Counted from the stretch's first letter, positions 8,157 through 64,000 are shown. The stretch is DNA of 64,000 bases from Calditrichia bacterium (GCA_028284905.1 JANQQU010000087.1:1015-65014), one strand, 5' to 3'. Notes: generated by a model not told the origin, from the letters alone. A program made the numbers and translations.

Positions 8157-8175
8157 GTTAATAGAAAATACAATC

Positions 8176-10923: not shown

Positions 10924-10943
10924 CGCTTCGGCGAAGATTAATT

Positions 10944-11175: not shown

Positions 11176-11301
11176 AGACCATTGCTGAAAACATCCCCTT
11201 TATTACCATAAAAACAAGAATCGGCTGATAGCGGAGATAGTTTCAAGTATGATCTAATATCCAGGAAAGAAATCTAGCCCTGTCGATCCATTAATTACCA
11301 A

Positions 11302-12162
11302 TCAAGTCTTATCGGTTTCATCATCAGCCGAAAAACCGTCAAAAGAATTGCTCAAATTATGGTCATCCAATTTCCAGGGTTTGTGCCACAGGGACCAGCC
11401 TCCATCTACCCGGATGGTCTCACCGGTAATATATGCTGCTGCCGGAGATAACAGGAAAGTAACCGCTGCTGCAATTTCGGATTCTGTTCCCAGTCGCTTT
11501 GCAGGGATTGCAGCACGGACAGAATCGATATAGCTTTTCATAAAGGCAGGATCATATTGACTCAGGCCATGCCCATCGATAACGCCCGGCGCAATTGAAT
11601 TGATCCGCACCCCTCGCGAGGCCCATTCTACTGCCAGGGTTTTCGTTAAGTTAACCACGCCCGCCCTTGCAGCCCCGGTATGGGCCATCCCGGGAAATCC
11701 GTTCCGGATTTCCGCGACAATATTAACAATGCTCCCCCCTTTTTTCACCATTGCCTTATTGAACACGGCCCGCGTTACATTAAATGTACCGGTCAGATTT
11801 GTCTCAATTACCGCGTGCCAGCCTTTTTGCTTGATATGCTCTGCCGGACTGGGAAACTGTCCCCCCGCATTATTAACCAGCATATCCAGTCCGCCATGTG
11901 CATTTACAATTTCCTCAATCAATTTTTCGACGTCTTCTTCCTGACGAATATTGACAGTATGCCAGCTGCATCGCCCTCCTGCATCGCTAATTTCCCGGCA
12001 GGTTTTCTCAAGCGACTGCTCTTTTCGACTGGCAATGATCAGATTCCCTCCGAGCGAAGCAAGCTCATGAGCTATAACACGCCCGATGCCTGTGCCACCT
12101 CCGGTAACAAGTATTGTCTGATCCTGAAAAAGATTTGGTCGAAAAATACTCTGATATTGCAT
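11302..12162 (-). CDS. SDR oxidoreductase (trans-2-enoyl-CoA reductase/citronellol dehydrogenase-like)
   Basis: TGGGTGIG, NNAGGQF, HTGAARAG and NSIAPG motifs. Confidence 0.85.
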   Translation of the reverse strand: MQYQSIFRPNLFQDQTILVTGGGTGIGRVIAHELASLGGNLIIASRKEQSLEKTCREISDAGGRCSWHTVNIRQEEDVEKLIEEIVNAHGGLDMLVNNAGGQFPSPAEHIKQKGWHAVIETNLTGTFNVTRAVFNKAMVKKGGSIVNIVAEIRNGFPGMAHTGAARAGVVNLTKTLAVEWASRGVRINSIAPGVIDGHGLSQYDPAFMKSYIDSVRAAIPAKRLGTESEIAAAVTFLLSPAAAYITGETIRVDGGWSLWHKPWKLDDHNLSNSFDGFSADDETDKT

Positions 12163-12399
12163 TATGCTTTCCTAACTTTTCGCCTTACTTCATGAAGGCA
12201 TCAAGATGGTAGTTTTTATCCCAACATAAAGGCTGGTTCATCTTCGCCAAACGTAACGATTCAATATCTCATAAACAATAATAATTAACCTGGAAGCTTA
12301 AGAGGTTTTTAACACATTGTCCCAAAAGACGTGTTATGATTCATCCTCGTGAACTCTGCTAAAAAGTGATATACAGATTTATTGCTGACCTCAAATAAA

Positions 12400-12430
12400 A
12401 AAGGGTTACAAGAAATTCTTGTAACCCTTT
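12400..12430. terminator. Hairpin adjoining the tRNA-Phe fragment
   Basis: aaagggttacaagaa / ttcttgtaacccttt; near-identical to the hairpin at 51913-51959. Confidence 0.7.
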
Positions 12431-12434
12431 ATCA

Positions 12435-12470
12435 TGGCGTCTCCCAGAATTGAACTGGGGACACACGGAT
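12435..12470 (-). repeat. 36-bp tRNA-Phe 3' fragment, putative att junction
   Basis: tggcgtctcccagaattgaactggggacacacggat is identical to 51964-51999; reverse complement is a T-arm plus acceptor strand. Confidence 0.85.
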
Positions 12471-12541
12471 ACTTACTTCCGATCAGACTAAAAAATACTT
12501 GCCACTGATTAGCAATCAATATATTTTATTAATATTAAAAA

Positions 12542-12557
12542 GGTATATTGTATACGA
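12542..12557. promoter_or_regulatory. Degenerate FadR-type operator upstream of the first regulator
   Basis: ggtatattgtatacga, 3 mismatches to tgtataatgtatacaa. Confidence 0.4.
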
Positions 12558-12580
12558 TTTAATAAGCCGAGTGATGTCGT

Positions 12581-13345
12581 ATGTCGAAAACCCATTCTCT
12601 AAAGAAAATTAATCGGAATGTACCGCTTAGTCTCAAAGTAGAAGAGCAATTAAGAAAAGCGATTTTCCAGAAGGTTTATGCACCTGGTGAGCGCTTGCCC
12701 AGTGAAACTGACCTCGTCGAAATATTTGGGATAAGTCGAACAGCAATACGGGAAGCATTACGAATGCTTGCTGGCCAGGGATTAATCGACATACGTGGGA
12801 GAAGTGGTGCATTTGTCGTGGAAATTGATTCAAGTCATGCTGCGAAACCACTGGCCACGCTTCTGCTCAGGAAATGTGGGGATCGCGGTTTGATTAATTT
12901 TATTCAGGCCCGAAAAGAAATTGAGCCCGGGAATGCTCGTTTGGCAGCAATTCATCGAACCGAAGAAGACATTCGCCACCTGGAAAAGTACTACACACTT
13001 ATGAAAGAAAATGTCGAGGACGCCAAAACTGTCGCTGAGAATGACAGTAAATTTCATAACAGAATTGCACAAGCGACTCAAAACCCAATCATTCCAATCA
13101 TTATGGAGCCGATTTTTCTGCTGCTGCCACAGTTGTTAACAGTCAATTTAGATGTGCTTTCTCATCGACAGGTATCCTTGCAACATCATCAAAATATTCT
13201 TGATTGCATTATCAGGGAAGATGCTGACGGTGCTTTTCAAGCGATGTTGGAACATATGAACATCGCCGAAGAGCATGTGAAAGAAGCTTATGAAAAGAAT
13301 ATTGTTACTGAAATAGATGAGGAAAATTACAATCTAGACATTTAG
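12581..13345 (+). CDS. GntR/FadR-family transcriptional regulator
   Basis: PGERLPSETDLVEIFGISRTAIREALRML winged HTH; FCD domain with DSKFHNRIAQATQNP. Confidence 0.92.
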   Translation: MSKTHSLKKINRNVPLSLKVEEQLRKAIFQKVYAPGERLPSETDLVEIFGISRTAIREALRMLAGQGLIDIRGRSGAFVVEIDSSHAAKPLATLLLRKCGDRGLINFIQARKEIEPGNARLAAIHRTEEDIRHLEKYYTLMKENVEDAKTVAENDSKFHNRIAQATQNPIIPIIMEPIFLLLPQLLTVNLDVLSHRQVSLQHHQNILDCIIREDADGAFQAMLEHMNIAEEHVKEAYEKNIVTEIDEENYNLDI

Positions 13346-50613: not shown

Positions 50614-51882
50614 ATGAATACTTTACCATCTGTACTTAGAAAATTTTATGGAGATTGTGAGCATACACAGCAGAAGCAAGAAAATCGTTATGCGAAACTT
50701 CATGATACTTTTGCATCAAGATTCGGTAAACAGCAGGTTTACCTTTTTAGCTCGCCAGGCCGTACCGAAATAGGCGGGAACCATACCGACCATAATCATG
50801 GCCGGGTGTTGGCAGCCAGTGTGAACCTCGATTCAATTGCTGTTGCATCCAGGAATAGCGAAGACACTGTGGTTTTATATTCTGAAGGGTTTGATACATC
50901 TTTTGTGGTTGATTTATCCCAACTGAATGTTGTTCAGGAAGAACAGGAAACAACATATGCACTAATTAGAGGTATTGCCGCCCGGCTCAAGCAATTAGGA
51001 TATACAATTGGTGGATTTAACGCCTGCATGACCAGCGAGGTGCTGCCAGGATCGGGATTGAGTTCATCTGCATCAGTAGAAGTACTGATCGGCTCAATAT
51101 TTAATACCCTTTACAATGCAAACAGAATTTCTCCGGAGGAATTAGCACAAATCGGGCAGTATGCTGAGAATGAGTATTTTGGGAAACCGTGTGGTTTGAT
51201 GGATCAAATGGCTTGTGCAGTAGGCGGTATTGTTACCATCGATTTCGCCAATCCTCAACATCCGCTGGTTGATAAGATAGACTTTGATTTTAATGCCCAA
51301 CAGTATCGGCTGCTGGTGGTGGACACCGGGGGGAATCACGCCGATTTAACCGATGATTATGCCGCTGTTCCTCAGGAAATGAAATCGATTGCTTCTGCAC
51401 TTGGCGCAGACGTTTGCCGGGAGATAGATTATAATCAATTGGTCAAGCAAATGGGATTGCTACGGAATCGAGTGGGTGATCGGGCAATATTGCGCGCAAT
51501 CCATTTTCTCGGCGATAACGACCGCGTTCTGAAACAGGTAACGGCATTAAAAAACGACGATTTCCCCAAATTCCTTTCATTGATTAACGCATCCGGGAAT
51601 TCATCATTTAAGTGGTTGCAAAATATTTATACTGTCAAGAATGTTCGTGAACAAGGGGTTTCATTGGCATTAGCAATCACCGAAAATTTTATTACGAAAA
51701 TCGGAGAAGGGGCTTGTCGGGTGCATGGAGGAGGATTTGCCGGAACCATCCAGGTATTTCTCCCCCAAAGAAAAGTGCCGAAGTTTACGGCTCTCATTGA
51801 TACGGTTTTTGGAGAAGGAAAAGTGATGGACCTAACGATCAGGCCTTTCGGAACAGGCTGCTTAAATGCCGATATTTTATGA
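50614..51882 (+). CDS. galK: Galactokinase (GHMP)
   Basis: SPGRTEIGGNHTDHN, PGSGLSSSA, CGLMDQ, HGGGFAG; follows galT. Confidence 0.9.
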   Translation: MNTLPSVLRKFYGDCEHTQQKQENRYAKLHDTFASRFGKQQVYLFSSPGRTEIGGNHTDHNHGRVLAASVNLDSIAVASRNSEDTVVLYSEGFDTSFVVDLSQLNVVQEEQETTYALIRGIAARLKQLGYTIGGFNACMTSEVLPGSGLSSSASVEVLIGSIFNTLYNANRISPEELAQIGQYAENEYFGKPCGLMDQMACAVGGIVTIDFANPQHPLVDKIDFDFNAQQYRLLVVDTGGNHADLTDDYAAVPQEMKSIASALGADVCREIDYNQLVKQMGLLRNRVGDRAILRAIHFLGDNDRVLKQVTALKNDDFPKFLSLINASGNSSFKWLQNIYTVKNVREQGVSLALAITENFITKIGEGACRVHGGGFAGTIQVFLPQRKVPKFTALIDTVFGEGKVMDLTIRPFGTGCLNADIL

Positions 51883-51912
51883 ACTGTCAAAATTATAAAC
51901 TGTTAGACAATA

Positions 51913-51959
51913 AAAAAACAAAGGGTTACAAGAAAATTTCTTGTAACCCTTTGTTTTTT
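51913..51959. terminator. Bidirectional-type hairpin between galK and the tRNA fragment
   Basis: aaaaaacaaagggttacaagaaa / tttcttgtaaccctttgtttttt perfect inverted repeat with A/T tails. Confidence 0.8.
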
Positions 51960-51960
51960 C

Positions 51961-52008
51961 TGGTGGCGTCTCCCAGAATTGAACTGGGGACACACGGATT
52001 TTCAGTCC
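51961..52008 (-). pseudogene. 3' part of tRNA-Phe(GAA), 48 bp, putative att junction
   Basis: Reverse complement GGACTGAAAATCCGTGTGTCCCCAGTTCAATTCTGGGAGACGCCACCA gives anticodon arm (GAA), T-arm and CCA; no D-arm or 5' acceptor strand beyond 52008. Confidence 0.85.
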
Positions 52009-52137
52009 TTGTAATAAATTTTTTGTTAAATTCAATATCTACAACACAAATTATTGTTTTTGCAAAGTCTTAGCCCCTAATCAACTATATCAAAAATCAC
52101 CATTTAACACCTATCAAAACATATCATTTACCAAAAC

Positions 52138-52156
52138 GTGCTGACTTATTGCTGAC
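52138..52156. repeat. Tandem TGCTGAC repeats, possible integrase arm-type sites
   Basis: gtgctgac-ttattgctgac; the 11-mer ttattgctgac also occurs at 12379-12389 beside the other tRNA fragment. Confidence 0.45.
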
Positions 52157-52653
52157 TTTTTTGATCAGTATAACTATTTCCGAATACATCAATTATGTAG
52201 AATTCTAAGTACATAACCCAAATTTGTATAGCATAATAAATTTCGCGATTTTGTCTCGAACTTGAAAATGGTACATTAAATTTTCAAAGGAACCTCGCTA
52301 TATGGACATATCGATCATTAAAAATCGCATTGATCAATCAGTAACTGAATAATGTATCCGATGTTTTTCATTTTAAACTTTCCCGAAAAAACAAACGAAC
52401 TTTGTTATTTACCTTTACAATATCTTCCTAAGCACTTATCTTTAAATATTCCAAAACAAATAGTCAAAATATCGGCAATAAGCAGATCAGTATTTAACTA
52501 CAGAGATGTACGAAAATTTGCATCACGATTGTCAAATAGTGAGTTTTGAAATCTTAAGATGATAATCTACAAAATTACCTTATCAGACTCAGGTTATTTG
52601 AGAGAAACTGCTCTTTGTTAGCATATAGTCAATAACTGGATAGTAGTAAATGG

Positions 52654-55455
52654 GTGAAAAGTAGAATGAAAACGAACAAAGATAAACCGGTTGTTTTAAT
52701 TGTCACTGCGGATAATCAGCGCGATTTACCACGGCTGATCCGTGAACGGGAGGGGATCAGAAAAGCGTTCAAAGCACTAAAAGATCAAGGTCTTATAGAA
52801 GTTGAGTTGGTTACCGATATTACCGCTTCGAGACTACAGGAGTGTCTTCTTGAATACAAAGACCGTTTGTCCATATTCCACTTTGCCGGACATGCTACAA
52901 AAGATTTTTTGAAAATCGCCAACGATACCGAAATTTTTCCGGAGGGATTGCTTCCTCTATTGTCTCAACGGAAGAGCCTTAAACTTGCATTTTTGAATGG
53001 CTGTTCCACTTTAAAACAAATAGAAACCCTATCCAGAAACAAGACTAGGAACAATATATTGGCAGCTATCGGCACAGTCGAAGCTGTGCCTGATGACCTT
53101 GCCAGCGAGCTGGCCATTAATTTTTATCAGCAACTGGTAGCTGGAGACGATGTACAGACTGCCTGGGGAGCTGCAGAAGACCGCTTAAAACTCACCCGAA
53201 CTGAAGGAGAAATTAGCCAGCAAATTTCCCGGGACCTCGAATCATCGAAAAAAGCTGGCCTCTCCTGGGAAATCCGCTATAGCGAACCAGAGGTGCTCGC
53301 TAAATCCTTTTCCCTTGCGACACTACTAGATGATCCACTCTACAACCTGCCACTCAGTGAAGATGACTTAAAGCCACCCTTTCCCAAATCCCCCTTTAAA
53401 TCCTTGCAACCCTTTTCCCGGGAAGATGCGGCGATTTTTTTTGGGCGGGGTAAAGACATTCGGGAATTATACCGGTTAATTTGCAGTAACTTTTCAATTA
53501 TTCTGCTGCATGGACAGAGCGGCGTTGGAAAATCTTCTCTGCTGCACGCTGGATTTATTCCCCGTATGGAAAACAAGGGTTATCGCGTAAAATATCAGCG
53601 TCGGTCACAAGATGGCCTTGTTGTAACTTTCCGTGAATTGCTGCAAGAAGCTTACATTGAGGCTGGTATACCCAAACCAATGCCAAAAAACCTTCATCAG
53701 TGCTGGCAAAAAATTGAGGTAAAAGATGGTGGAGAAGGTCTGATTATCATTTTGGATCAAGCGGAAGAATTATTTACCCAGCAAAAAAAAGAACAACAAG
53801 ATAATGAGTTATTGAAATCCAAGGAAATTCTAACAGAGTTATTTGCTCCACAAAAAAAGCCTCGCTTAAAAGGCACACTAATCCTCAGTTTCCGAAAAGA
53901 ATTTTATGCCGATTTTCATAATACATTGGAAAAAGGTGTTCGCTTACCTATAACCGATATGCTGCTCAAACCCCTTGACCAGCAGGGGATTATAGAAGCT
54001 GTAACCGGTGTTGCCGGTCATTATATACCCGAAATTCGAAATCAATATAAGATTAATGTAGAAAAATCTGAAGATCAAAATTTACCTCTAGCGATAGCGG
54101 CTGATCTGATAAATGATGTTAAGTCCACTATTGCCCCAATACTTCAAATGGTATTGTATCAAATGTGGGAAAAGCAGAAGAATAAACGAAATAAAAATTT
54201 GTATTTAAAGGAGTACCGAGATAAATGGCGAAACCGCAATATGATAAGACATTATTTGCTTGAAAAGATGCAATCTGTGGAAAAAGATTTCCCGTATGAA
54301 ATACGTCAAGGCTTAGTATTAGATATATTACATTTTCACATTACAGATAAAAAAACAGCAGGCAGGAGGTCGACTGAAGAGATAAAGAAAAATTACGATC
54401 ACATTAAGATAAACCCCATGAAATTAGTCCAATGCCTAGTAGATAATTATTTATTAATAAAAGAAGAAAAAAGCAAATTTACACGCCTTGTGCATGATGC
54501 TCTTGTACGAGTGATTTTAGATGAATTTCAAAAATCCTTCAAAATGGCTCAAAGAGCATCAAGAGTATTGCAACACAAAACCATTGATTTTGAACATTCT
54601 CCAGAAGAAACTTGGCTAGACTCTAGAGACAAGATTGTAATAGAAAAAGCAGAACATTTTATGCGAAAACACTCAGACATCGAAAAAAAAATATTAAATA
54701 TTATCGAGCAAAAATTCTCTCAAGATAAAAAACCTCCTCAAGATAATTCATTGCAAAATAATAGACGTGATATACACCCTCTATTATATAGCCAAAGCAT
54801 GGCATTAGATTTAATCGAAGCCTTGGCTCACAGAGGAAAAGCTATCTCTCCACATCTAAAACGCTTAAAAAGTAATCATTTTATGATTTCTATGGTTTTT
54901 AGTAATTTCAACTTTAATCTGACTGGAAAAATAAAATATCAGTTAAATAAAGTTAATATTAGTGAATTAGTTAGTAAAATTATTAATGCCCTCAACTACA
55001 AAGCAGAGTTTGAGTATGGTATCGAAATAAAATTCATAAATGATCAATCTACTATGATGTTTCTGGACGAACTTCTATTCGAACTAATTCTATTCAATAT
55101 TATTCTTAACGCTATTCAATACTCAGTTAAACGGTCAAAAATCATTGAAATAAATCATATACAACAGAAAATTACTTTTGAGGGTATTAAGAATACATCC
55201 TGGGAGGTAATCAGTATTAAGAATTGGGGCATTGGTATTTTAGAGGAGGAAAAAGAATTAATTTTTACAGAATTATTTCGAGGTAGCAACGCTTATTTAA
55301 CCCAAATTGACGGCTCAGGTTTAGGCCTGGCAGTTTCGAAAGAGATTATCGAAGACCATGATGGATTTATTCGTGTAACTAGTCTTCACAGTCCTACTAT
55401 TTTTTCGATTTACTTACCTAGTTATCTAAAAAATCAAATGCCTGAAAGGTTGTAA
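52654..55455 (+). CDS. CHAT (caspase-like) protease, STAND NTPase and histidine-kinase-like ATPase fusion
   Basis: FHFAGH and FLNGC dyad; FFGR, Walker A GQSGVGKSS, Walker B IIILDQAEELF; C-terminal N-box NIILNAIQYS, NWGIGI, GSGLGL. Confidence 0.8.
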   Translation: MKSRMKTNKDKPVVLIVTADNQRDLPRLIREREGIRKAFKALKDQGLIEVELVTDITASRLQECLLEYKDRLSIFHFAGHATKDFLKIANDTEIFPEGLLPLLSQRKSLKLAFLNGCSTLKQIETLSRNKTRNNILAAIGTVEAVPDDLASELAINFYQQLVAGDDVQTAWGAAEDRLKLTRTEGEISQQISRDLESSKKAGLSWEIRYSEPEVLAKSFSLATLLDDPLYNLPLSEDDLKPPFPKSPFKSLQPFSREDAAIFFGRGKDIRELYRLICSNFSIILLHGQSGVGKSSLLHAGFIPRMENKGYRVKYQRRSQDGLVVTFRELLQEAYIEAGIPKPMPKNLHQCWQKIEVKDGGEGLIIILDQAEELFTQQKKEQQDNELLKSKEILTELFAPQKKPRLKGTLILSFRKEFYADFHNTLEKGVRLPITDMLLKPLDQQGIIEAVTGVAGHYIPEIRNQYKINVEKSEDQNLPLAIAADLINDVKSTIAPILQMVLYQMWEKQKNKRNKNLYLKEYRDKWRNRNMIRHYLLEKMQSVEKDFPYEIRQGLVLDILHFHITDKKTAGRRSTEEIKKNYDHIKINPMKLVQCLVDNYLLIKEEKSKFTRLVHDALVRVILDEFQKSFKMAQRASRVLQHKTIDFEHSPEETWLDSRDKIVIEKAEHFMRKHSDIEKKILNIIEQKFSQDKKPPQDNSLQNNRRDIHPLLYSQSMALDLIEALAHRGKAISPHLKRLKSNHFMISMVFSNFNFNLTGKIKYQLNKVNISELVSKIINALNYKAEFEYGIEIKFINDQSTMMFLDELLFELILFNIILNAIQYSVKRSKIIEINHIQQKITFEGIKNTSWEVISIKNWGIGILEEEKELIFTELFRGSNAYLTQIDGSGLGLAVSKEIIEDHDGFIRVTSLHSPTIFSIYLPSYLKNQMPERL

Positions 55456-56141
55456 ACGTTTATTTCCTTTTTCTACTATTAACTATTTGTTCAATTCTAT
55501 TAACAATTTCAGTTGTCGATGTCGGCTTCCTTAGATATGCTGCCACCTGTTTATTTAAACCTAATTCATCTAATTCTTCTTCCAGAGCTTGTCGGGCTGT
55601 TAAAAGAATTACAGGGATTTTACTCTGAGTGAGTTCAGTTATTTTCTCGAGTAACAACAAACCAGTTCGTCGGCCTTGATTACTTGCTTCAATATTTATG
55701 GAGTCGTCTGGGGGCATCATAACATCTAAAATAATAGCATCTAACTGGTTGCCTGCAGACTGGATAAGTTTTAACCCTTCCTTCGGAGAGCTTTCTAGTA
55801 TAACCTCCCATTCTTTAATTTCCACCAAAAATTGTTTTAAATAAAAATTTGTATTTAGATCATCATCTATAATTAATATCCTCATTGTAAGGTCTCCTTC
55901 TTTTCAAATAACTGGGCAAATAGATAGAGAAGATCGTCGGATTATTAAGATGGGTTACTTCTATAAAACCATCATGATTTTCAATAATCTCTTTTGAAAC
56001 TACCAATCCTATTCCGGCCCCGGAGGGATCAGTTTTAGATACATTACTCCCCCGTTTATAATCCTCAAAAATAAGTTCCTTTTCCTCCTCTAAAATACCA
56101 ATGCCCCAATTCTTAATACTGATCACCTCCCAGGATGTATT
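55192..56141. repeat. 62-bp inverted repeat shared by the two kinase ATPase domains
   Basis: 55192-55253 versus the reverse complement of 56080-56141: 61 of 62 identical by manual alignment. Confidence 0.85.
55460..55885 (-). CDS. Single-domain response regulator
   Basis: ILIIDDD, phospho-site ILDVMMP, LTA, LRKP. Confidence 0.92.
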   Translation of the reverse strand: MRILIIDDDLNTNFYLKQFLVEIKEWEVILESSPKEGLKLIQSAGNQLDAIILDVMMPPDDSINIEASNQGRRTGLLLLEKITELTQSKIPVILLTARQALEEELDELGLNKQVAAYLRKPTSTTEIVNRIEQIVNSRKRK

Positions 56142-59100
56142 TTTGATTTGATCGAAACGTTTATCTTGAAGATAGTAACTGATTTCAATTTTATGCATAC
56201 CTTCCAAAGAATACTTAATCGCATTTTGAAGTAAGTTAAAGATCACCTGTTCGAAACGTTGTTTATCAATATACATGTCCGGTATGTCACTAATATGTGA
56301 AACTATATCAATTTTACGATTAAAACGCGCATATCTTATAAGTAATTTACGAATTTTGGTAATTGAATCATACATATTCACTAAGGTAAAATTATATTCT
56401 GATTTCTGATTAGTTCCTTTGCCAAATCTAAGACGAAAGTCTTCAATTAAATGATATAAATGCTTTGCACTTTCTCTCAAATAACCGAATTGTGCTTCAC
56501 GATCCTTTACCTTATGATTTTCTAAGAATATCTTCTTCACAAAATCAAATTGCACTTCCATTGCATGAAGCGGAGTTGCAAGCTCATGCGATAATTGTTC
56601 CAGATATTCGCCTTTTTCAATACTTAACTCGAAATTCTCTATTAGTCGAGCAATTACACCAGCAACCAATTCTAAAAAATCCTTATCCCCCTCTTCAAAG
56701 GCCTGATGTTTTCGGTGAGTTTGTTGTTTATTAATGCAGCGAATCACACCGATCGGTTCTCCATCCCCGCCCAATATTGGCGTGCCAATTAACGAACGAT
56801 ATTCCCCATTTTCGAGAATCTCTCGAAATTTAGTCGGTTCATTTAAGGATCGCCGAATATCATAAATAATTACAGGACGATTGAGGTGAAATATTCTTTC
56901 CGAAAGACTATTTTCTTTTAAGGGATAAAGATCAATCCCTATAAATTCATTAATTGGTTTTTCTTCCAATTTATTCTCAGTGTTTCGGAAACCCTTTAAA
57001 GCCGTTGTCCCTGCCAGGCAAAGCGTTTGATTACGCGCATTTAATAAAAAAATGCTACAAACCTCCACGCTCAATACATTTTTTAAAATATTTGCTAGCT
57101 CCGGATAAAAACTTGCATTATTGGTTTTTGACAAATTCCTTAGTTTTTTTTGAAGGATGTCGACTTGACGATACCGTTGCTCAAACCTACTTTTTTCAAT
57201 AATCGGTGAGAGACGTTTCACAAATCTTTCCAATCGTTCAATCTTTATTTCATCCAGTGAAAACTTAGTGTTGTTATTGTTGTTCATACTACGGGTTTTT
57301 CTTTCCGGGCGATACAAATATATCAAACCCAATACCAGTTGTGAGTAATTCTTGAATTCCCCGCCGAAAATAATAGGTTCAGTGTGTTTTATGATTGGAA
57401 TGACAATATTAGCTTTTGTGCCAAACTCCTGTGCAAAATCTTGCCACCGTCCCTTTGATTCACGGCCACTTTCAACCATGTGTATGTTTAGTTTTTTATT
57501 TCGGTTATAAATCAGCTCTCCCATATAACTTTCATCATGAGGAAAAATATCTGATTTGTAAAGGCGCTCTTCTAAAGCAATATCATCACGACTTTGCGTA
57601 TCTTCAGTACCAACATAAACTGAACGTAATTGAACTTTAAAACGTTCGGCCCCCTCACCAAATCCCTCATCAAGCGGAATCCATAAGGTCGCCACATATG
57701 CATCCATTACCTTATTAAGATATTGGAGAATACTTCGGAAAATGCTATCTGAATCATCGGTTAGTATTATGGAATTCAAAAAAGCCTCATCCTCACGAAG
57801 CATTCGTTCTTTTTCATGACTTTTATAATTTTCATAAGAGACATGTAATTGATGTGCAATGGTTTCCAGAATCTCTTTTTCATCTTTTGAGAATCCTTTT
57901 TCAGATATCTTTAATTGATTTTCCAACCTATTAATCAGTACCATCACTCCTGAAGGAATTTCAATGTTTTGCTGTGATGTAATAGGGATAACCAACAAGT
58001 GTCTAATAGATTTTGTTTTTAAAATACTTTGCCTGAAGATATTAATATTTTCAGAATTAATTTTGACTTGCTTTTGACTTGTGATATCAGGGGAAATCTC
58101 AATCAATTCACCTTGAATTGCCTGATCCCAGGCAAAAGTTTTTTTGCGACCATATAATACAGACGCGACAAGTGTTTCCTTAATCCCTTCATTACGTAAA
58201 TTGCTTAATATTTCACGAATTTGACTATCATTCTTATACTGCATAAAAACAGCAGCTTCATCCAACTCATACCCATTAACAAAGCTAATAGAACAATATT
58301 CCACATTCAAATGATGGACAATTGTTTTCGCAAATTCTTTTAACTCTTTTTCTAAATCACGGCGACTTTTGACGGTAGCAATATTAGCAACATCCTGTAA
58401 AGCATGACTAAAAGAAGTTTGAAGATCCCTGATATGTAGTAGTTGATCATAATCTGAGTAAGTTTGATTTTTTTCTGCAATTGTTTCATTTAATGCTTTT
58501 ACAATTTTATTGAGTTCTAACTCATGATTTTGTATGGTTATCGCAGTCCAGGCAGCTAACAACGCAATAAATGTTTGCATAAACAGTTCTAATAAGTGCG
58601 CAGAAAACCCATTATCGTTTTCAGCCAAAAAACAAAATACAGACATAGCGACAGTAATTGACGTGACAATACCATAAGATCTTTTCATCCAATTAATTTT
58701 TAAGGTTAAAAGGTCATACTTTGAGAAATAATAGGTATGCAGAACAATCAAGATATAAATAGCGTGATAAAACGGACTTTGAACACCACCACTTGCAGCT
58801 GCAGCAAGGTATATAGTAAAAGCATCCGGGATAAGCATGAATGCAAGAAAATTACTTTCCAAAGCGATGTTTTTTCTATTCTTATAAGATAGAGTATAAA
58901 AAAACACCAGTAATCCCAATATAGAAAAGAACAATTGAACAGCCCACGCAAACCACATCTTTTCAATGTTAATTCCTTTACTCCAAATTTCAGATGCTAT
59001 AAAACCAATTTTGGGAAAAATAAGTAACACCAAAAGGCTAAAAACTGTAAATATTAGACGAATATATATATAGCTTGGAAAAGCATTTTTCGGATTTAGG

Positions 59101-59168
59101 ATTTGCTTCATTGCAATGGTAATTTTCTCAAGCAATTGAAAGCTCCCGCCTTTATTAGTAAAATTCAT
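55863..59168 (-). CDS. Membrane-anchored multi-GAF sensor histidine kinase
   Basis: Several N-terminal TM helices, GAF-like segments (LLVIPI...GVMVLIN; SLIGTPI...GVIRCINK), H-box LSHELATPL, N/G boxes. Confidence 0.88.
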   Translation of the reverse strand: MNFTNKGGSFQLLEKITIAMKQILNPKNAFPSYIYIRLIFTVFSLLVLLIFPKIGFIASEIWSKGINIEKMWFAWAVQLFFSILGLLVFFYTLSYKNRKNIALESNFLAFMLIPDAFTIYLAAAASGGVQSPFYHAIYILIVLHTYYFSKYDLLTLKINWMKRSYGIVTSITVAMSVFCFLAENDNGFSAHLLELFMQTFIALLAAWTAITIQNHELELNKIVKALNETIAEKNQTYSDYDQLLHIRDLQTSFSHALQDVANIATVKSRRDLEKELKEFAKTIVHHLNVEYCSISFVNGYELDEAAVFMQYKNDSQIREILSNLRNEGIKETLVASVLYGRKKTFAWDQAIQGELIEISPDITSQKQVKINSENINIFRQSILKTKSIRHLLVIPITSQQNIEIPSGVMVLINRLENQLKISEKGFSKDEKEILETIAHQLHVSYENYKSHEKERMLREDEAFLNSIILTDDSDSIFRSILQYLNKVMDAYVATLWIPLDEGFGEGAERFKVQLRSVYVGTEDTQSRDDIALEERLYKSDIFPHDESYMGELIYNRNKKLNIHMVESGRESKGRWQDFAQEFGTKANIVIPIIKHTEPIIFGGEFKNYSQLVLGLIYLYRPERKTRSMNNNNNTKFSLDEIKIERLERFVKRLSPIIEKSRFEQRYRQVDILQKKLRNLSKTNNASFYPELANILKNVLSVEVCSIFLLNARNQTLCLAGTTALKGFRNTENKLEEKPINEFIGIDLYPLKENSLSERIFHLNRPVIIYDIRRSLNEPTKFREILENGEYRSLIGTPILGGDGEPIGVIRCINKQQTHRKHQAFEEGDKDFLELVAGVIARLIENFELSIEKGEYLEQLSHELATPLHAMEVQFDFVKKIFLENHKVKDREAQFGYLRESAKHLYHLIEDFRLRFGKGTNQKSEYNFTLVNMYDSITKIRKLLIRYARFNRKIDIVSHISDIPDMYIDKQRFEQVIFNLLQNAIKYSLEGMHKIEISYYLQDKRFDQIKNTSWEVISIKNWGIGILEEEKELIFEDYKRGSNVSKTDPSGAGIGLVVSKEIIENHDGFIEVTHLNNPTIFSIYLPSYLKRRRPYNEDINYR

Positions 59169-59288
59169 GAAAACGGATAATAGACAAGTATATAAATTTT
59201 TATCGCCAGTAAAAACATTTTTTTAAGCCATCTGAGAGTTTCCCCCCAATCAATCCCTAAGAAGATTAAACCAAAAACAGGGATTGAT

Positions 59289-60653
59289 ATGAAAACATTA
59301 CAAAAAGTTATCTGGCACGAGGGGATGTTTTTAAAACCCCATCATTTTCAACAGGCGGAGCGCCATGGGCAAATTATGCTGAATGCGCGGATTCGTGCGG
59401 TGGCACGCCACGACTGGGGACTCTCGGAAATACAGATTGACCGGGCGGCGGTGGGCAATGGGGAAATCAATTTACTGAGTTGCCGGGGCGTATTGCCGGA
59501 TGGGTTGGCCTTTGACGCCCCGGAAATACATCCGCTGCCGGCGGCGCAAAGCTTTCAAAAAATTTTTACCCCGAAGTTACAGGAGCTTGGCGTTTTCCTG
59601 GTGATTCCCCGGGAAAAACCTGCTGGGGGAAATTGCCAGATGAATGGCAAAGCAAACGGCGATGCGACCCGTTACCAATTGCAGCAAATCGAATTGCGCG
59701 ATGATAATTCCGGAGAGAACGAACAGGATATCGCTATCGGGCTGCCTAATTTGCAGATTCGTTTTGGGAAGGATTTGCCCCCCGGCTTTACCGGCATTCA
59801 GATTGCCCGCCTGGTTCGGCAGGAAAATGATCAGATTACCCTGGACGAACGCTTTGTGCCGCCTTGTCTTCACCTGAAAGCTTCGCCTCCGTTGGCGGTT
59901 ATTTTAAAAAGCTTGTTGGGATTTCTTCTGGAAAAAAGCAGCACCCTTAGCGAGCGGCGGCAGCGCCAGAGCAGCGGGCAGGTGACTTTTAGCAATGTCG
60001 ATGTAAAAACCTTTTGGCTGCTCCATACCGTCAATTCCTTTATTCCCCTGCTCAATCATCTTGAGCGCTTGCCGGTGCCGGGCTGCCATCCGGAGGAGCT
60101 TTATCAGCAGATGCTTACCCTCGCCGGTCAGTTGAAATCTTTCTCGGATAGTAGCGATATGAGCTTCCCCCGCTACGAACACCAGCAACTTAAGAAATGT
60201 TTTTATAGCCTCTACAATGAGATCCGCAAATTGCTCGATCAGGCCGTGCCGCCGGCGAATTACCTGCGCATTCCCCTCACCAGCCGGGATCGCTCGCTTT
60301 ACGCCGGACAGATTGTCGATGAATCATTATTCCGGGGCAACACTTTCTACCTGGTGATGCGTGGGGAATTTAACGAACGGCAAATTGAGCAGGATCTGCC
60401 GATGCATATCAAAATTGGTAGCCCGGATGAAATTCAGCAGCTGGCGGAGTCAGCGGTGCAAGGTGTGAAGATTAGTAGCGTTTCCCGTCCGCCGGTGGGG
60501 CCGCCGAGTGGGCCGGGCTTGCATTATTTTCGTCTCAATCCGTCGGGGATTTACTGGGATAATGTTCGGCGCAGTCAACGTATTGCGATTCTTTTTCCCG
60601 CTGCCTATAAGGCCCTGACGCCGATGTTGTTGGCGGTTCAGGAGAATGGTTAA
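59289..60653 (+). CDS. tssK: Type VI secretion baseplate subunit TssK (VasE/ImpJ family), no other T6SS gene in the window
   Basis: KVIWHEGMFLKPHHFQQ, GVLPDG, LDERFVPPCL, HPEELY, YEHQQL motifs. Confidence 0.85.
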   Translation: MKTLQKVIWHEGMFLKPHHFQQAERHGQIMLNARIRAVARHDWGLSEIQIDRAAVGNGEINLLSCRGVLPDGLAFDAPEIHPLPAAQSFQKIFTPKLQELGVFLVIPREKPAGGNCQMNGKANGDATRYQLQQIELRDDNSGENEQDIAIGLPNLQIRFGKDLPPGFTGIQIARLVRQENDQITLDERFVPPCLHLKASPPLAVILKSLLGFLLEKSSTLSERRQRQSSGQVTFSNVDVKTFWLLHTVNSFIPLLNHLERLPVPGCHPEELYQQMLTLAGQLKSFSDSSDMSFPRYEHQQLKKCFYSLYNEIRKLLDQAVPPANYLRIPLTSRDRSLYAGQIVDESLFRGNTFYLVMRGEFNERQIEQDLPMHIKIGSPDEIQQLAESAVQGVKISSVSRPPVGPPSGPGLHYFRLNPSGIYWDNVRRSQRIAILFPAAYKALTPMLLAVQENG

Positions 60654-61059: not shown

Positions 61060-62949
61060 ATGGATCACCAGCAAAAAAAACAATTGGTGGCTGCCTTACT
61101 TCGATTGCCTTCGATGAGCGATCCGGAGACACGCAGCGATGTTGTCAATAATCTTCGCGATGATATTAAAAACAATATCCGGCGCAGAAGTAAAGCGCAG
61201 AATGAAGTGCTGAATATTGTCGAAAGCTGCCTGAATTATACCGGCGGCGTTGATGAATTGATCAAGGTATTGCGGGATCTATTTGAAAGAGACTCCCTTC
61301 CCCAGCAGGCGCTGGAAAAAACCTGGCAGGAAATCGCAACTTCGCAAAGTAATGCAGTACCTGAGATTTCACCGCCAGCACCTTCAACGGCAATGCCCGC
61401 AGCAGCTGGGGCGACCGGAAAAGAAAAGCGCATTTTCATCAGCTATAAAAACGAAGCAACACCGGATGAAGCCGTTGCCGAGGCTGTGCACCAGGCATTG
61501 CGCGAGCACGGCTATTACGTTTTTATCGACAAGGATATGCCGGTGGGCACGGAATGGGGGCGGCGTATTGAGGCCGAAATTCGTCAGGCGGATTTTCTCA
61601 TCCCTTTCCTTTCCCGCCATTCCGTCAACAGCGAAATGGTGCTGAGTGAAATTGAAAAAGCCTATCACCTCTCCAAAGAACAAGCGGGTCGTCCGGTTAC
61701 CTTGCCGGTGCGAGTGGCTTACCAGGAAGCTTTCCGTTATCCGCTTAGCGCCTATTTGAATCACATTAACTGGGCCAGTTGGGAAAAAGAAGGGGATACC
61801 CAAGCGCTCATCGCGGAGTTATTGCGCGCGATTGAAGGGCAGCCGCTACCGGAAAAGCGCGCCGTTGAGCCACCGCCTGCAACAGAAATGAGCGAAGATA
61901 ACGGTGATCCTCACTATGCCGCCCAGCCGTTCCCGGAAATGCCCGAAGGCACCATGGCGGCCGATTCCCGCTTTTATATCGAACGACCGGCGGACGATGT
62001 CGCCCTGAAGGCCATCGCGACCCAGGGCGTGACGATCACCATTCAGGCGCCGCGCCAGATGGGAAAAAGTTCTTTGCTTATCCGCATTATGCACAGCGCG
62101 GAGCAGCTGGGGAAAAAAGTAGTCTTTATGGATTTTCAGCTCTTTGACCGCATTACCCTGGAAAATATCGACAGCTTCCTCTACCAATTTTGCGAAGACC
62201 TCACTTACGAACTCGATCTGGAGAGCAAGCTGGACGAATACTGGCGCCCGGGCATCAGCAAGCCGTTGGCTTGTACCCGTTACCTGGAGCGTTACATTCT
62301 AAAAAACATCGAACAGCCGCTGTTGCTGGCGTTGGATGAAGTAGATACCCTTTTCGACAAATCCTATCGTTCGGATTTTTTCGGGATGCTCCGTAGCTGG
62401 TACAACAAGCGCAGCTCTAAACCACTTTGGAAACAGCTCGATCTCGCTTTGGTCACTTCCACCGAACCGTATCAGTTGATCGATAACCGCAACCAGTCGC
62501 CCTTTAATGTCGGGACCAATCTGCGTTTGCCGGATTTTAGCAGCGATCAGGTGGAAAAACTCAACGAGTTCTACGGCAATCCTTTGAAACCGCACATGAT
62601 TGCAGACCTGATGACCTTACTGCACGGCCATCCCTACCTGGTGCGCCGCGCCCTCTTCTGGGTGGTCAGCGGGCAAGGAGATGCCGGCAATCTCTTTCAC
62701 CGAGCGATTGAAGAGCAGGGGCCGTTCGGCGATCATCTCCGCTATCATCTCTTCCGGCTGCATGAACGTCCCGCTTTAGAGACGGCAATGCTAGAGATCA
62801 TTGCGGCGCAGACCTGCCAGGATGACGACCTTTATTTCCGCCTGGAAGCAGCGGGACTGGTGCGCCGGGAAGGACGAAAATCCCTGCCTCGTTGCGGACT
62901 CTATAAAGAATATTTTCGGGAACGCCTGCGGGTAAACGACAATGACTGA
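61060..62949 (+). CDS. EAD2-like domain, TIR domain and AAA_35-type NTPase
   Basis: N-terminal LVAALLRLPSM...IVESCLNYTGG (EAD2-like); TIR RIFISY...VFID...SEMVLSEI; YIERPAD, APRQMGKSSL, LALDEVD. Confidence 0.78.
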   Translation: MDHQQKKQLVAALLRLPSMSDPETRSDVVNNLRDDIKNNIRRRSKAQNEVLNIVESCLNYTGGVDELIKVLRDLFERDSLPQQALEKTWQEIATSQSNAVPEISPPAPSTAMPAAAGATGKEKRIFISYKNEATPDEAVAEAVHQALREHGYYVFIDKDMPVGTEWGRRIEAEIRQADFLIPFLSRHSVNSEMVLSEIEKAYHLSKEQAGRPVTLPVRVAYQEAFRYPLSAYLNHINWASWEKEGDTQALIAELLRAIEGQPLPEKRAVEPPPATEMSEDNGDPHYAAQPFPEMPEGTMAADSRFYIERPADDVALKAIATQGVTITIQAPRQMGKSSLLIRIMHSAEQLGKKVVFMDFQLFDRITLENIDSFLYQFCEDLTYELDLESKLDEYWRPGISKPLACTRYLERYILKNIEQPLLLALDEVDTLFDKSYRSDFFGMLRSWYNKRSSKPLWKQLDLALVTSTEPYQLIDNRNQSPFNVGTNLRLPDFSSDQVEKLNEFYGNPLKPHMIADLMTLLHGHPYLVRRALFWVVSGQGDAGNLFHRAIEEQGPFGDHLRYHLFRLHERPALETAMLEIIAAQTCQDDDLYFRLEAAGLVRREGRKSLPRCGLYKEYFRERLRVNDND

Positions 62950-64000
62950 TCAAACAAAAACAATTTATGCCGTCGGGGGGACGGTGCAGGCCAAGGGGGG
63001 AATTTACATCTCCCGCCAGGCGGATGAAGAGCTGCTCGCCCATTGCCGGCAGGGCAACTATGCCTACGTATTGAACGCCCGCCAGATGGGAAAATCCAGC
63101 CTGATTGCCCATACCTGCGAACGGCTGGATGATGATATTCATACCGTTAATATCGACCTCACCGACATCGGCACCACTATTAACGAAGAAGAATTTTATC
63201 TCGGCATCTTAACCATGATCGCCGACGAGCTAGACCTGGAGAGCGACATTTACGACTGGTGGCAGGCGCAGGCCCATCTCGGGAAAACCCAGCGTTTTAG
63301 CCGCTACCTCCGTTCGGTGGTTCTAGAAGAGATTGCCGGACCGGTAATCATTTTTATTGACGAGATCGATACCACACTTAGCCTACCAAGTTTTACCGAC
63401 GATTTTTTTGCCGCGATTCGCGCGCTTTACAACGCCCGCGCCACCGACCCGGCCCTGGCACGGCTCTCCTTTGTGCTGATTGGGGTGGCCCATCCCGGGG
63501 ATTTAATTAGCGACCCGGCCCGCACCCCCTTTAATATCGGGGAACGGATTATTTTGCGGGATTTTACCCTGGCAGAAGCAGAACCGCTGGCCGGCGGGCT
63601 GGGGAATGACGCCAGCGAAGGAACGCGCATTTTAAAAGAGATATTCCAGTGGACCAACGGCCATCCCTATCTCACCTTGCGCCTCTGCGATGCTTTGACG
63701 AATAAAGCGGCAGCTTATAATGACTGGACGCTGCCGGCCCTGGTAGAAACCCTCTTTTTTAGTGAAGAAAGTGCCAAAGACAGCAACCTGGAATTTGTGC
63801 GGGACAAGCTCACCGATGACGCCCCGCCGGGGAAGCAAGCGGAACTGCTAAGAATCTACCGGCGGGTTTTTCTCTCTTTTCTTCGGGAAAAAGATGAAGA
63901 ACAATCCCGCCTGAAAAACCATTTAAAGCTGGCCGGGGTAATTCGTGCGGAGAATGGTTACTTGAAAGTACGTAACAAGATTTACCGCCGGGCCTTTAAC
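62942..64000 (+). CDS. AAA_35-type NTPase, partial, runs off the right edge
   Basis: Hand translation from ATG at 62942 (overlapping the previous stop): YAVGGTVQAKGGIYISRQAD, NARQMGKSSL, IFIDEID, TPFNIG, GHPYLT. Not in the ORF track. Confidence 0.85.
   Translation, partial: MTDQTKTIYAVGGTVQAKGGIYISRQADEELLAHCRQGNYAYVLNARQMGKSSLIAHTCERLDDDIHTVNIDLTDIGTTINEEEFYLGILTMIADELDLESDIYDWWQAQAHLGKTQRFSRYLRSVVLEEIAGPVIIFIDEIDTTLSLPSFTDDFFAAIRALYNARATDPALARLSFVLIGVAHPGDLISDPARTPFNIGERIILRDFTLAEAEPLAGGLGNDASEGTRILKEIFQWTNGHPYLTLRLCDALTNKAAAYNDWTLPALVETLFFSEESAKDSNLEFVRDKLTDDAPPGKQAELLRIYRRVFLSFLREKDEEQSRLKNHLKLAGVIRAENGYLKVRNKIYRRAFN

What the first reader, a model, noticed from the sequence alone, without database searches (positions are those of the whole stretch)
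52654..59168. Caspase-like protease/STAND NTPase fused to a kinase module, facing a receiver and a GAF kinase
Seen: an intact-looking CHAT His/Cys dyad and Walker A/B motifs, but the C-terminus is a histidine-kinase ATPase rather than sensor repeats; its H-box is degenerate (LAHRGKAISP) and the DHp region looks roughly 25-30 residues shorter than the neighbour's. It converges on a lone receiver and a multi-GAF kinase. Established: CHAT-STAND proteins are NLR-like conflict/death effectors usually ending in WD40/TPR repeats. Inference: a system coupling two-component phosphosignalling to STAND oligomerisation and proteolysis, for example via kinase heterodimers. I do not recognise this architecture as described. 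This is my best candidate for a new system.
Basis: partly seen in the sequence, partly recalled or inferred. Interest (0 to 1): 0.75.

Follow-up and report, generated by a model that had tools for sequence, protein, structure and literature searches.

The report
Caspase-like STAND protein with pseudo-kinase tail
A bacterial immune-receptor-like protein (caspase-like protease plus ATPase switch) really does end in the ATP-binding domain of a histidine kinase copied long ago from the kinase family next door. The exact fusion is found in no other sequence and the gene neighbourhood is not conserved, so it is a one-off variant of a known modular kind and not a new conserved system.

Summary
The architecture is real. 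P0001 (52654-55455, +) carries CHAT with an intact His80/Cys117 dyad, nSTAND1 with intact Walker A/B, and a C-terminal HATPase_c. It converges, 4 nt apart, on a lone receiver and a membrane triple-GAF kinase.

Two details need correcting:
- The phospho-acceptor position aligns to Arg705, not to "LAHRGK".
- The helical linker is about 7 residues shorter than the neighbour's DHp, not 25-30, and shows no detectable DHp sequence homology.

Only the catalytic (CA) domain is provably kinase-derived. It falls inside the neighbour kinase's narrow family and shares that family's G1-box Asp-to-Asn signature. Against the neighbour it is saturated at synonymous sites yet under purifying selection (omega at most about 0.2). 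The two copies also share a 44-nt exact inverted gene-conversion tract.

An independent contig at about 50x spans the join, so it is not a chimera.

The fusion is a singleton in searches of 5.8 and 1.84 billion proteins. Four other kinase-receiver loci lack CHAT-STAND. The closest CHAT-nSTAND1 relatives are retroelement-diversified lectin sensors.

Analogous rare fusions exist, such as Trypsin-nSTAND1-GAF-HisKA-HATPase_c.

Verdict: a new variant of NLR-like protease-STAND proteins with a swapped sensor. Functional coupling to the two-component pair is plausible but unproven.

The parts
52654..55455 (+). P0001, a 933-aa CHAT-nSTAND1-(helical linker)-HATPase_c protein. The database version starts at the ATG at 52666 and is 929 aa.
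   Evidence: ORF, translation, Pfam, self hit P0004.
52699..53178 (+). CHAT caspase-like protease domain (aa 16-175). The catalytic His80 codon is 52891-52893 and the Cys117 codon is 53002-53004.
   Evidence: Pfam 30.8 bits. His80 and Cys117 are invariant in 104/104 homologs.
53392..54513 (+). nSTAND1 NTPase (aa 247-620). Walker A GQSGVGKSS is at 53512-53538 and Walker B IIILDQAEE at 53743-53769. Homology to CHAT-nSTAND1 relatives continues to about aa 690 (nt 54723).
   Evidence: Pfam 127 bits. Motifs invariant. Relatives' alignments end at query aa 680-741.
54742..54903 (+). Predicted helical hairpin (aa 697-725 and 733-750) in the position of a DHp domain. Arg705 (54766-54768) sits where kinases have the phospho-acceptor His.
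   Evidence: AF2 model, pLDDT 64-75 here. Alignment column is His in 38/40 and Arg in P0001. No DHp profile similarity. 10% identity to P0003's DHp.
54928..55443 (+). Catalytic/ATP-binding (CA, HATPase_c) domain, aa 759-930. The N box (N815, N819), F box (F871) and G2 box (G887, G889, G891) are kept. The G1 box has Asn857 instead of Asp, as in the whole neighbour-kinase family.
   Evidence: AF2 pLDDT above 90. Foldseek hits to HK853, WalK and CpxA. Tree clade support 100/98-99.
55186..55266 (+). Left arm of the inverted repeat (81 nt, 93% complementary). The exact 44-nt core is 55210-55253 and encodes the G1-box region.
   Evidence: Logan contigs break exactly here.
56067..56147 (-). Right arm of the inverted repeat, inside the kinase gene. 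The exact core is 56080-56123.
55460..55885 (-). P0002, a 141-aa single-domain receiver. Its start overlaps the kinase stop by 23 nt, and its stop lies 4 nt from the P0001 stop. It lies between the repeat arms.
   Evidence: Pfam 44 bits. Conserved partner of this kinase family in 4 other loci.
55863..59168 (-). P0003, a 1101-aa membrane (5 hydrophobic segments) triple-GAF histidine kinase with a canonical H-box (SHELATPL, His861) and a G1 Asn.
51961..52008 (-). 48-nt 3' half of a tRNA-Phe(GAA) gene (anticodon arm to CCA) at the left edge of the low-GC block. It looks like an integration scar. There is no complete tRNA in the window.
   Evidence: Sequence read. Unique match. ARAGORN and Rfam negative. 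Matched by many unrelated contigs.

Best explanation
P0001 is a genuine, long-maintained NLR-like (STAND) conflict protein with three parts. The N-terminal CHAT caspase-like protease is the effector. The nSTAND1 NTPase is the oligomerisation switch. In place of the usual WD40, TPR or lectin sensor there is a pseudo-histidine-kinase tail: a helical hairpin with no phospho-acceptor His, followed by an intact ATP-binding CA domain. That CA domain belongs to the same narrow kinase family as the convergent neighbour.

Shown:
- The domain content and intact catalytic residues.
- The kinase-family origin of the CA domain, its age and its purifying selection.
- Recombination (a gene-conversion tract) between the two CA copies.
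- The physical reality of the join.
- The lack of any conserved partner system.

Inferred:
- The tail acts as the sensor and autoinhibitory module of the STAND switch.
- It cannot autophosphorylate on a canonical His.
- It most likely works by binding nucleotide and/or docking on a protein partner. The plausible partners are the neighbour kinase's DHp/His region or its receiver.
- The partner's state, or a disturbance of it, would then license NTP-dependent oligomerisation and CHAT proteolysis, as in other protease-STAND proteins.

The whole block sits in what looks like an island next to a tRNA-Phe scar, together with a TIR-STAND pair. That fits a conflict/defence role.

The confidence given (0.55) is a blend: about 0.85 for the anatomical and evolutionary statements, about 0.35 for the sensor mechanism.
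For: Architecture and motifs:
- Domain content and catalytic residues.
- All top relatives share aa 1 to about 690 and then diverge into WD40, DUF1566/Lcl_C, FGE-sulfatase, LRR, TPR or beta-lactamase tails. The sensor position is therefore a swap-in slot.
- Other nSTAND1 proteases carry signalling tails in that slot: GAF-HisKA-HATPase_c, PAS-GAF-SpoIIE, dCache and GAF.

Origin and constraint of the CA domain:
- The CA domain sits in the clade of P0003, P0124 and L008-L010 with 100/98-99 support.
- It shares the family-specific G1 Asp-to-Asn.
- CA dN is 0.40 with dS above 2, so omega is at most about 0.19.
- N, F and G2 box residues are kept.

Recombination between the copies:
- The two copies share a 44-nt exact tract. 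Proportion of synonymous differences (pS) is 0.40 there, against 0.69-0.84 in the flanks.

Reality of the join:
- One 3261-bp Logan contig covers 51979-55239 with 0 differences at about 50x.

Structure:
- AF2 model has pLDDT 80 overall and above 90 in CA. Best PDB matches are whole DHp+CA kinase cores.

Context:
- EAD2-TIR-AAA_35 plus a second AAA_35 gene, and an orphan TssK, lie to the right.
- A tRNA-Phe 3' fragment lies at the left edge.
- The block is low in GC.
Against: - No second example of this fusion exists, so there is no comparative evidence that the tail is a functional sensor.
- The genes are convergent and not co-transcribed.
- The adjacency of CHAT-STAND and kinase/receiver is not conserved anywhere.
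- The DHp-like region is unrecognisable by sequence.
- The AF2 hairpin comes from an alignment made only of kinases, so it is biased toward that fold.
- The omega estimate averages over both lineages, and the P0001 CA branch is about twice as long as P0003's.
- The G1 Asn may mean altered nucleotide binding, or none, in the whole family.
- No PADLOC defence model matches the STAND part.
- No experimental data of any kind.
Confidence: 0.55

Rival explanations
1. Direct phospho-signalling coupling. P0001 forms heterodimers with the GAF kinase, or docks the receiver, so that two-component phosphorylation state gates STAND oligomerisation and proteolysis.
For: - The genes are tightly adjacent, with 4 nt between stop codons.
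- The CA domains are paralogous.
- The gene-conversion tract keeps the G1/ATP-lid-proximal 28 residues identical in both proteins. That could preserve the same docking specificity.
- The receiver and kinase are a conserved, translationally coupled pair.
- An in-silico inversion between the repeats would place the receiver in an operon with P0001.
Against: - The dimerisation (DHp) equivalent is 10% identical to P0003's and has no detectable DHp homology.
- There is no phospho-acceptor His; Arg705 takes its place.
- The genes are convergent.
- No co-occurrence in any other locus examined.
- The independent analogue P0370 has no receiver within 1.6 kb.
Confidence: 0.25
2. Neutral relic. A local rearrangement (inverted partial duplication of the kinase 3' end) destroyed the original sensor of a CHAT-nSTAND1 gene. 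The present tail has no role, and the protein is inert or constitutively off.
For: - The architecture is a singleton.
- The linker evolves almost neutrally (omega about 0.7).
- The P0001 CA branch is about twice as long as P0003's.
- GC3 steps from about 0.40 to about 0.28 near aa 400, which suggests a mosaic history.
Against: - Synonymous sites between the copies are saturated, yet the 933-codon frame is intact.
- CA omega is at most about 0.19, and all N, F and G2 residues are kept.
- The CHAT dyad and Walker motifs are intact.
- A dead gene of that age in an AT-rich region would be expected to carry stops.
Confidence: 0.15
3. Assembly artefact. The join between the STAND part and the kinase-like tail is a chimeric contig join at a repeat.
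For: - The source is a metagenome-derived contig.
- An inverted repeat lies inside the tail, and Logan k=31 contigs break there. The orientation of the 886-bp middle piece (55224-56109) is therefore not independently confirmed.
Against: - The STAND-to-CA junction (about 54700-54930) lies well inside a single 3261-bp contig with 0 differences and even depth of about 50x.
- The repeat affects only which of two homologous 61-66-residue tails ends the protein. Either orientation leaves a complete CA domain.
- P0003's tail is closer to its orthologs than P0001's tail is (66% against 52%). That agrees with the assembled orientation.
Confidence: 0.03

Closest known systems
CHAT-nSTAND1 NLR-like conflict proteins (nSTAND1 clade named in Kaur et al. 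2021, PMC8195603), including the DGR-diversified CHAT/nSTAND1-lectin 'antigen sensors' (Dore et al. 2024, PMC10907252)
   Same: - The N-terminal 690 residues match: CHAT with His/Cys dyad, nSTAND1 with the same invariant Walker A/B and Arg.
- Identity is 33-37%, E down to 1e-114.
- The effector-switch-sensor order is the same.
   Different: - The tail is a kinase CA domain, not WD40, TPR, LRR or a C-type-lectin fold.
- The nearest relatives (KSB1 MAGs) are followed by bAvd plus reverse transcriptase. I looked only at ORFs from 43.7 kb to the window end and saw none there.
Protease-nSTAND1 proteins with signalling tails, e.g. P0370 Trypsin_2-nSTAND1-GAF-HisKA-HATPase_c with an upstream Trypco1 gene. 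Found here, prompted by earlier scan note e1-2951651.
   Same: A protease effector plus nSTAND1 plus a histidine-kinase-type C-terminus in the sensor slot. It is rare and of independent origin.
   Different: - P0370 has a trypsin effector, a GAF sensor and a canonical HisKA (74 bits) with HATPase_c (98 bits).
- P0001 has CHAT, no GAF or PAS, no phospho-acceptor His and no recognisable HisKA.
- P0001's CA is a paralog of the gene next door.
Class I sensor histidine kinases (HK853, WalK/YycG, CpxA cores) and specifically the GAF-kinase + single-domain receiver family of P0003, P0124 and L008-L010
   Same: - CA fold and N/G1/F/G2 motif layout.
- The family-specific G1 Asn.
- The conserved C-terminal 'PTIFSIYLPSYLK'.
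   Different: - No sensor GAFs and no membrane anchor.
- No His at the phospho-acceptor position.
- The DHp is not recognisable.
- It is attached to a STAND protease.
Plant and animal NLRs with integrated decoy domains (Cesari et al. 2014, PMC4246468)
   Same: By analogy only: an NLR-type switch that has acquired a catalytically crippled copy of another host signalling protein as its sensor.
   Different: - No evidence that any invader targets the neighbour kinase.
- Different NTPase clade and effector.
- Not tested.

Membership tests
CHAT-nSTAND1 STAND/NLR-like conflict proteins | nSTAND1 NTPase domain above the Pfam gathering score, with intact Walker A Lys and Walker B acidic residues | tested here: met
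   PF20703 at 127 bits against a cut-off of 27.1. K293, D368 and E371 are invariant with 104 homologs.
CHAT-nSTAND1 STAND/NLR-like conflict proteins | N-terminal CHAT caspase-like domain with the catalytic His/Cys dyad | tested here: met
   PF12770 at 30.8 bits against a cut-off of 24. His80 and Cys117 are invariant in 104/104.
CHAT-nSTAND1 STAND/NLR-like conflict proteins | C-terminal repeat or lectin-type sensor (WD40, TPR, LRR, CLec/FGE, DUF1566) | tested here: not met
   Pfam finds only HATPase_c after aa 620. All 119 non-self relatives listed carry other tails.
Class I histidine kinase (DHp/HisKA + CA) | Phospho-acceptor His in helix 1 of a recognisable DHp/HisKA domain | tested here: not met
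   No HisKA hit. Arg705 sits in the His column, which is His in 38/40. hhalign probability against a DHp profile is 0.1%.
Class I histidine kinase (DHp/HisKA + CA) | CA domain with N, G1, F and G2 boxes | tested here: met
   HATPase_c at 54 bits. N815, N819, G859, G861, F871, G887, G889 and G891 are kept. G1 Asp is Asn857, as in all five family kinases.
Class I histidine kinase (DHp/HisKA + CA) | Two-helix dimerisation hairpin preceding CA | tested here: inconclusive
   AF2 predicts helices at aa 697-725 and 733-750 with pLDDT 64-75, and Foldseek aligns whole DHp+CA cores. The input alignment consisted of kinases only, so the result is biased.
Two-component pair (P0003 + P0002) | Kinase with H-box His, and a cognate receiver encoded immediately downstream in relatives as well | tested here: met
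   His861 in SHELATPL. The receiver has DD, D, T and K positions. Same-strand receivers follow the kinase in L001, L008, L009 and L010.
   0 of 4 other kinase-receiver loci have CHAT-STAND, and neither of the 2 close CHAT-nSTAND1 relatives examined (seen on 4 contigs) has a kinase or receiver neighbour. No second fused protein was found.
Known anti-phage STAND systems (Avs and others in PADLOC-DB v2) | Match of the STAND protein to a curated defence model | tested here: not met
   There are only weak hits of the kinase-like tail to the candidate PDC-M43B (29 bits), and none for the CHAT-nSTAND1 part.
DGR-diversified CHAT-nSTAND1-lectin sensors | C-type-lectin-fold variable region plus adjacent bAvd and reverse transcriptase | tested here: not met
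   Present in the nearest relatives L002-L005. There is no lectin domain in P0001. Flanking genes scanned from 43.7 kb to the window end contain no RT or bAvd.

The most novel reading that the evidence does not exclude
A bacterial 'integrated decoy' NLR. The His-less copy of the neighbour kinase's catalytic core serves as bait or guard module. A phage or rival factor that binds or modifies this kinase family's CA domain, or a change in the real kinase's DHp state sensed by CA docking, releases the STAND switch and fires the caspase-like protease. Recurrent recombination between the two inverted CA copies (the 44-nt conversion tract) keeps bait and target alike. Rare inversion between them could additionally hand the translationally coupled receiver gene from the kinase to the STAND gene.
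Probability: 0.08. Interest if true: 0.85.

Novelty: new variant of a known kind. Interest (0 to 1): 0.45.

Why it matters
Protease-STAND (NLR-like) proteins are modular, and their sensor slot determines what they detect. This case shows the slot filled by a crippled copy of a resident signalling enzyme. The copy is kept under selection and is homogenised in part with the original by gene conversion.

If functional, this would be a prokaryotic parallel to the integrated-domain NLRs of plants. It would also be a concrete test case for how two-component signalling parts are recruited into cell-death or immunity switches.

As it stands it is one gene in one uncultured coral-associated bacterium. 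It has no conserved neighbourhood and no experimental handle, so its weight is modest.

A side result is that the neighbour defines a small kinase+receiver family whose G1-box Asp is always Asn. That raises a question about the family's nucleotide use.

Tried and rejected
The organism and the rest of the island could not be examined.
- The GTDB scan with P0001 found nothing, not even the window itself.
- The metagenome scan with the tail found only two generic kinases matching 56 residues.
- The exact-sequence look-up of P0004 returned no record.
- Rfam on 51500-59800 and ARAGORN on the whole window were both negative. The tRNA-like stretch is only a 48-nt fragment.
- No direct repeat of that fragment was found at the other edge of the low-GC block.
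- tblastn against plasmids gave only nSTAND1 matches. The two Streptomyces genes I opened are Trypco1 + Trypsin_2-nSTAND1-WD40, not kinase fusions.
- A first CA tree put P0001 outside P0003+P0124 (97/91). With three more family members the internal order collapsed to a polytomy. I therefore do not claim either a recent local duplication or an ancient one from the tree. The age claim rests on saturated dS.
- The sigma-70 promoter scan was no better than shuffles: 24 found against 28 expected.
- PADLOC gave only weak generic hits.
- Logan contigs cannot phase the inverted repeat, so population-level inversion could not be tested.

Full report
**1. What is there**

The finding's coordinates hold three ORFs:
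- P0001, 52654-55455 (+), 933 aa.
- P0002, 55460-55885 (-), 141 aa.
- P0003, 55863-59168 (-), 1101 aa.

Pfam gives for P0001:
- CHAT, aa 16-175, 30.8 bits (cut-off 24).
- nSTAND1, aa 247-620, 127 bits.
- HATPase_c, aa 805-923, 54 bits.
- No HisKA.

P0002 is a single receiver domain. P0003 has three GAF stretches, a weak HisKA and HATPase_c, preceded by five hydrophobic segments.

I aligned P0001 with 104 homologs. These residues are invariant in all of them and present in P0001: His76, His80, Cys117, Walker A GxSGxGKSS (K293), Walker B D368/E371 and Arg414. The protease and switch parts therefore look catalytically competent.

P0001 and the receiver gene converge with 4 nt between their stop codons. 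The receiver's start overlaps the kinase's stop by 23 nt.

**2. What the tail really is**

The C-terminal 172 residues of P0001 are 54% identical to the CA domain of the neighbouring kinase (BLASTP E 2e-46). At the DNA level the two lie in inverted orientation:
- One arm pair is 81 nt long and 93% complementary.
- It contains a 44-nt exact core, at 55210-55253 and 56080-56123.
- The rest is about 70% identical.

In a 40-kinase alignment P0001 keeps the N box (N815, N819), F871 and the G2 glycines. Its G1 box reads Asn857 where 37 of 40 kinases have Asp. The only other two with Asn are P0003 and its homolog P0124.

Three further family members from GTDB genomes (L008; L009, Bacteroidales; L010, Saprospiraceae) also have Asn there. 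All of them have a canonical H-box His.

Trees of the CA domain place P0001 inside this family with 100/98-99 support. The order within the family is unresolved.

The region upstream of CA is a different matter:
- The phospho-acceptor column is Arg705 in P0001.
- The stretch aa 691-758 is 10% identical to P0003's DHp, whereas P0003 and P0124 are 37% identical there.
- A profile of ten DHp regions does not recognise it (hhalign probability 0.1%).

An AF2 model of aa 621-933 (pLDDT 80 overall, above 90 in CA) predicts a helical hairpin at aa 697-725 and 733-750. Foldseek aligns the model to complete DHp+CA cores of HK853, WalK and CpxA (E about 1e-14, TM about 0.6-0.7). The input alignment contained only kinases, so this is weak evidence.

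I therefore call the tail a pseudo-kinase module: a proven CA domain and an unproven, His-less DHp-like linker. The linker is about 7 residues shorter than the neighbour's, not 25-30.

**3. Is the fusion real and old?**

The only run holding the sequence is a coral metagenome. Its Logan contigs are an assembly at k=31, probably from the same reads as the window. They include one 3261-bp contig covering 51979-55239 with no differences at about 50x. That contig reaches from the upstream intergenic region, through CHAT, nSTAND1 and the linker, into the CA domain up to the G1 box.

Contigs break only at the 44-nt inverted repeat. The orientation of the 886-bp middle piece is therefore not independently confirmed. 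Either orientation gives P0001 a complete CA domain.

Codon analysis gives these results for CA between P0001 and P0003:
- dN is 0.40 and dS is above 2 (saturated), so omega is at most about 0.19.
- Within the tract (aa 845-872) pS is 0.40, against 0.69-0.84 beside it. P0003 against P0124 is fully saturated there.

The copies are therefore old, the CA domain of P0001 has been kept by selection, and a short gene conversion has happened since.

P0003's tail is closer to its orthologs than P0001's tail is (66% against 52%). That fits the assembled orientation.

**4. Is it a conserved system?**

No.

Searches for the fusion:
- The word-indexed search of 5.8 billion proteins returned the self hit as the only protein with CHAT/nSTAND1 plus HATPase_c. 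This held both with the whole protein and with aa 640-933 alone.
- The exhaustive phmmer search of 1.84 billion representatives found 969 relatives at E of 1e-30 or better. Among the best 150, no best-scoring alignment stretch runs past query residue 741.

Neighbourhoods of the parts:
- The nearest CHAT-nSTAND1 proteins (KSB1 MAGs) end in Lcl_C/DUF1566 and are followed by bAvd and a reverse transcriptase. They are DGR targets of the kind described in PMC10907252.
- The kinase+receiver pair is itself conserved, with a same-strand receiver right after the kinase in L001, L008, L009 and L010.
- Its other neighbours vary: a TM/coiled-coil protein, an SDR, a type I HsdR, and Fic with a SecA-like protein. 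None is a CHAT or STAND gene.

**5. Is the architecture class new?**

I tested this by searching with the first 700 residues of a Streptomyces Trypsin_2-nSTAND1 protein, so that long WD40 forms fell outside the length filter.

Pfam scans confirmed these finds:
- P0370: Trypsin_2-nSTAND1-GAF-HisKA-HATPase_c, with HisKA at 74 bits and HATPase_c at 98 bits. A Trypco1 gene lies upstream and there is no receiver within 1.6 kb.
- P0368: Trypsin_2-nSTAND1-PAS-GAF-SpoIIE.
- P0399: CHAT-nSTAND1-dCache_1.
- P0376: Trypsin_2-nSTAND1-GAF.

The two Aravind-group surveys I read mention receivers without kinases in such systems, and state that no histidine kinase domains were found among vWA-associated effectors (PMC7159879, PMC8195603). 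I found no paper describing a STAND-kinase fusion.

The kind (protease-STAND with a signalling-type tail) therefore exists in databases but is barely described. The window's protein is a distinct variant of it:
- It has a CHAT effector.
- It has no GAF or PAS domain.
- It has no acceptor His.
- Its CA domain is paralogous to the gene next door.

**6. How it most likely works**

By analogy with characterised STAND/NLR proteins (established knowledge), the C-terminal module holds the NTPase off until a cue is bound. Oligomerisation then activates the N-terminal effector, here a caspase-like protease.

The tail cannot be a conventional autokinase. What selection has preserved is the nucleotide-binding CA fold. 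What recombination has homogenised with the neighbour is the G1-box/ATP-lid-proximal segment.

My best reading is that the CA domain is the sensor. It would bind nucleotide and/or dock on a partner, and the neighbour kinase's DHp or its receiver are the obvious candidates. This is inference. The evolutionary and anatomical statements are shown, the mechanism is not. The rivals are direct phospho-coupling, a neutral relic and an artefact. They are weighed in the Rival explanations section.

**7. Context**

The block from about 51900 to 59250 has GC 0.35, against 0.44 to its left and 0.51 to its right.

Within P0001, GC3 steps from about 0.40 (aa 1-400) to 0.23-0.30 (aa 401-933). The lower value matches the kinase and receiver.

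At the left edge, directly after the galK terminator, lies a 48-nt 3' half of a tRNA-Phe(GAA) gene on the minus strand. There is no full tRNA in the window.

Its orientation fits an integration scar whose element extends rightward. That element would cover the three genes, an orphan tssK and an EAD2-TIR-AAA_35 plus AAA_35 pair.

**8. Verdict**

This is a new variant of a known modular kind. Interest is moderate, mainly for the decoy-like logic and the conversion tract. It is limited by being a singleton in an uncultured organism.

Noticed in passing
window 51961-52008 (-), next to the terminator hairpin 51913-51959: A 48-nt 3' half of a tRNA-Phe(GAA) gene (anticodon arm to CCA) with no 5' half. 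It sits exactly where GC drops from 0.44 to 0.30. Many unrelated contigs of three runs match it. It looks like an att-type scar of an island that extends to the right.
   Followed up: partly
window 55863-59168 (P0003); L001 274-3492; L008 7698-10964; L009 3776-6319; L010 3851-6433: A small family of GAF histidine kinases, each followed by a roughly 140-aa single-domain receiver. The G1-box Asp that contacts adenine in GHKL ATPases is always Asn here (IKNWGIG, ISNYGIG, FVNEGIG), while the H-box His is kept. This may mean unusual nucleotide use.
   Followed up: partly
window 55210-55253 and 56080-56123: A 44-nt exact inverted repeat flanks the receiver gene. An in-silico inversion keeps both large ORFs open (938 and 1096 aa). 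It also moves the receiver to a co-directional, overlapping position behind the CHAT-STAND gene. Whether inversion occurs could not be tested with k=31 contigs.
   Followed up: partly
window 52654-55455: There is a GC3 step inside P0001: about 0.40 for aa 1-400 (like galK) against 0.23-0.30 for aa 401-933 (like the kinase and receiver). The step falls inside the nSTAND1 domain, not at the STAND/CA junction. It may mark an older recombination between two nSTAND1 genes.
   Followed up: no
window 59289-60653: A full-length TssK/VasE (389 bits) lies right of the kinase, with no other type VI secretion gene among the right-flank ORFs scanned. Its GC3 is 0.59, against 0.29 for the kinase next to it.
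   Followed up: no
window 61060-64000: An EAD2-TIR-AAA_35 protein is translationally coupled to a second AAA_35 NTPase. This is a second NLR-like conflict module a few kb from the first.
   Followed up: no
L002 and L004 (KSB1 MAGs), 6001-13200: The closest CHAT-nSTAND1 relatives end in Lcl_C/DUF1566. They are followed by bAvd, a reverse transcriptase and a second Lcl_C protein. These are two-target DGR loci in candidate division KSB1.
   Followed up: partly
L009 468-3689 and L010 2316-3755: In two relatives the kinase-receiver pair sits next to a type I restriction HsdR subunit (Bacteroidales MAG) or a Fic protein (Saprospiraceae MAG). This hints that the pair travels in defence or mobile contexts.
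   Followed up: no
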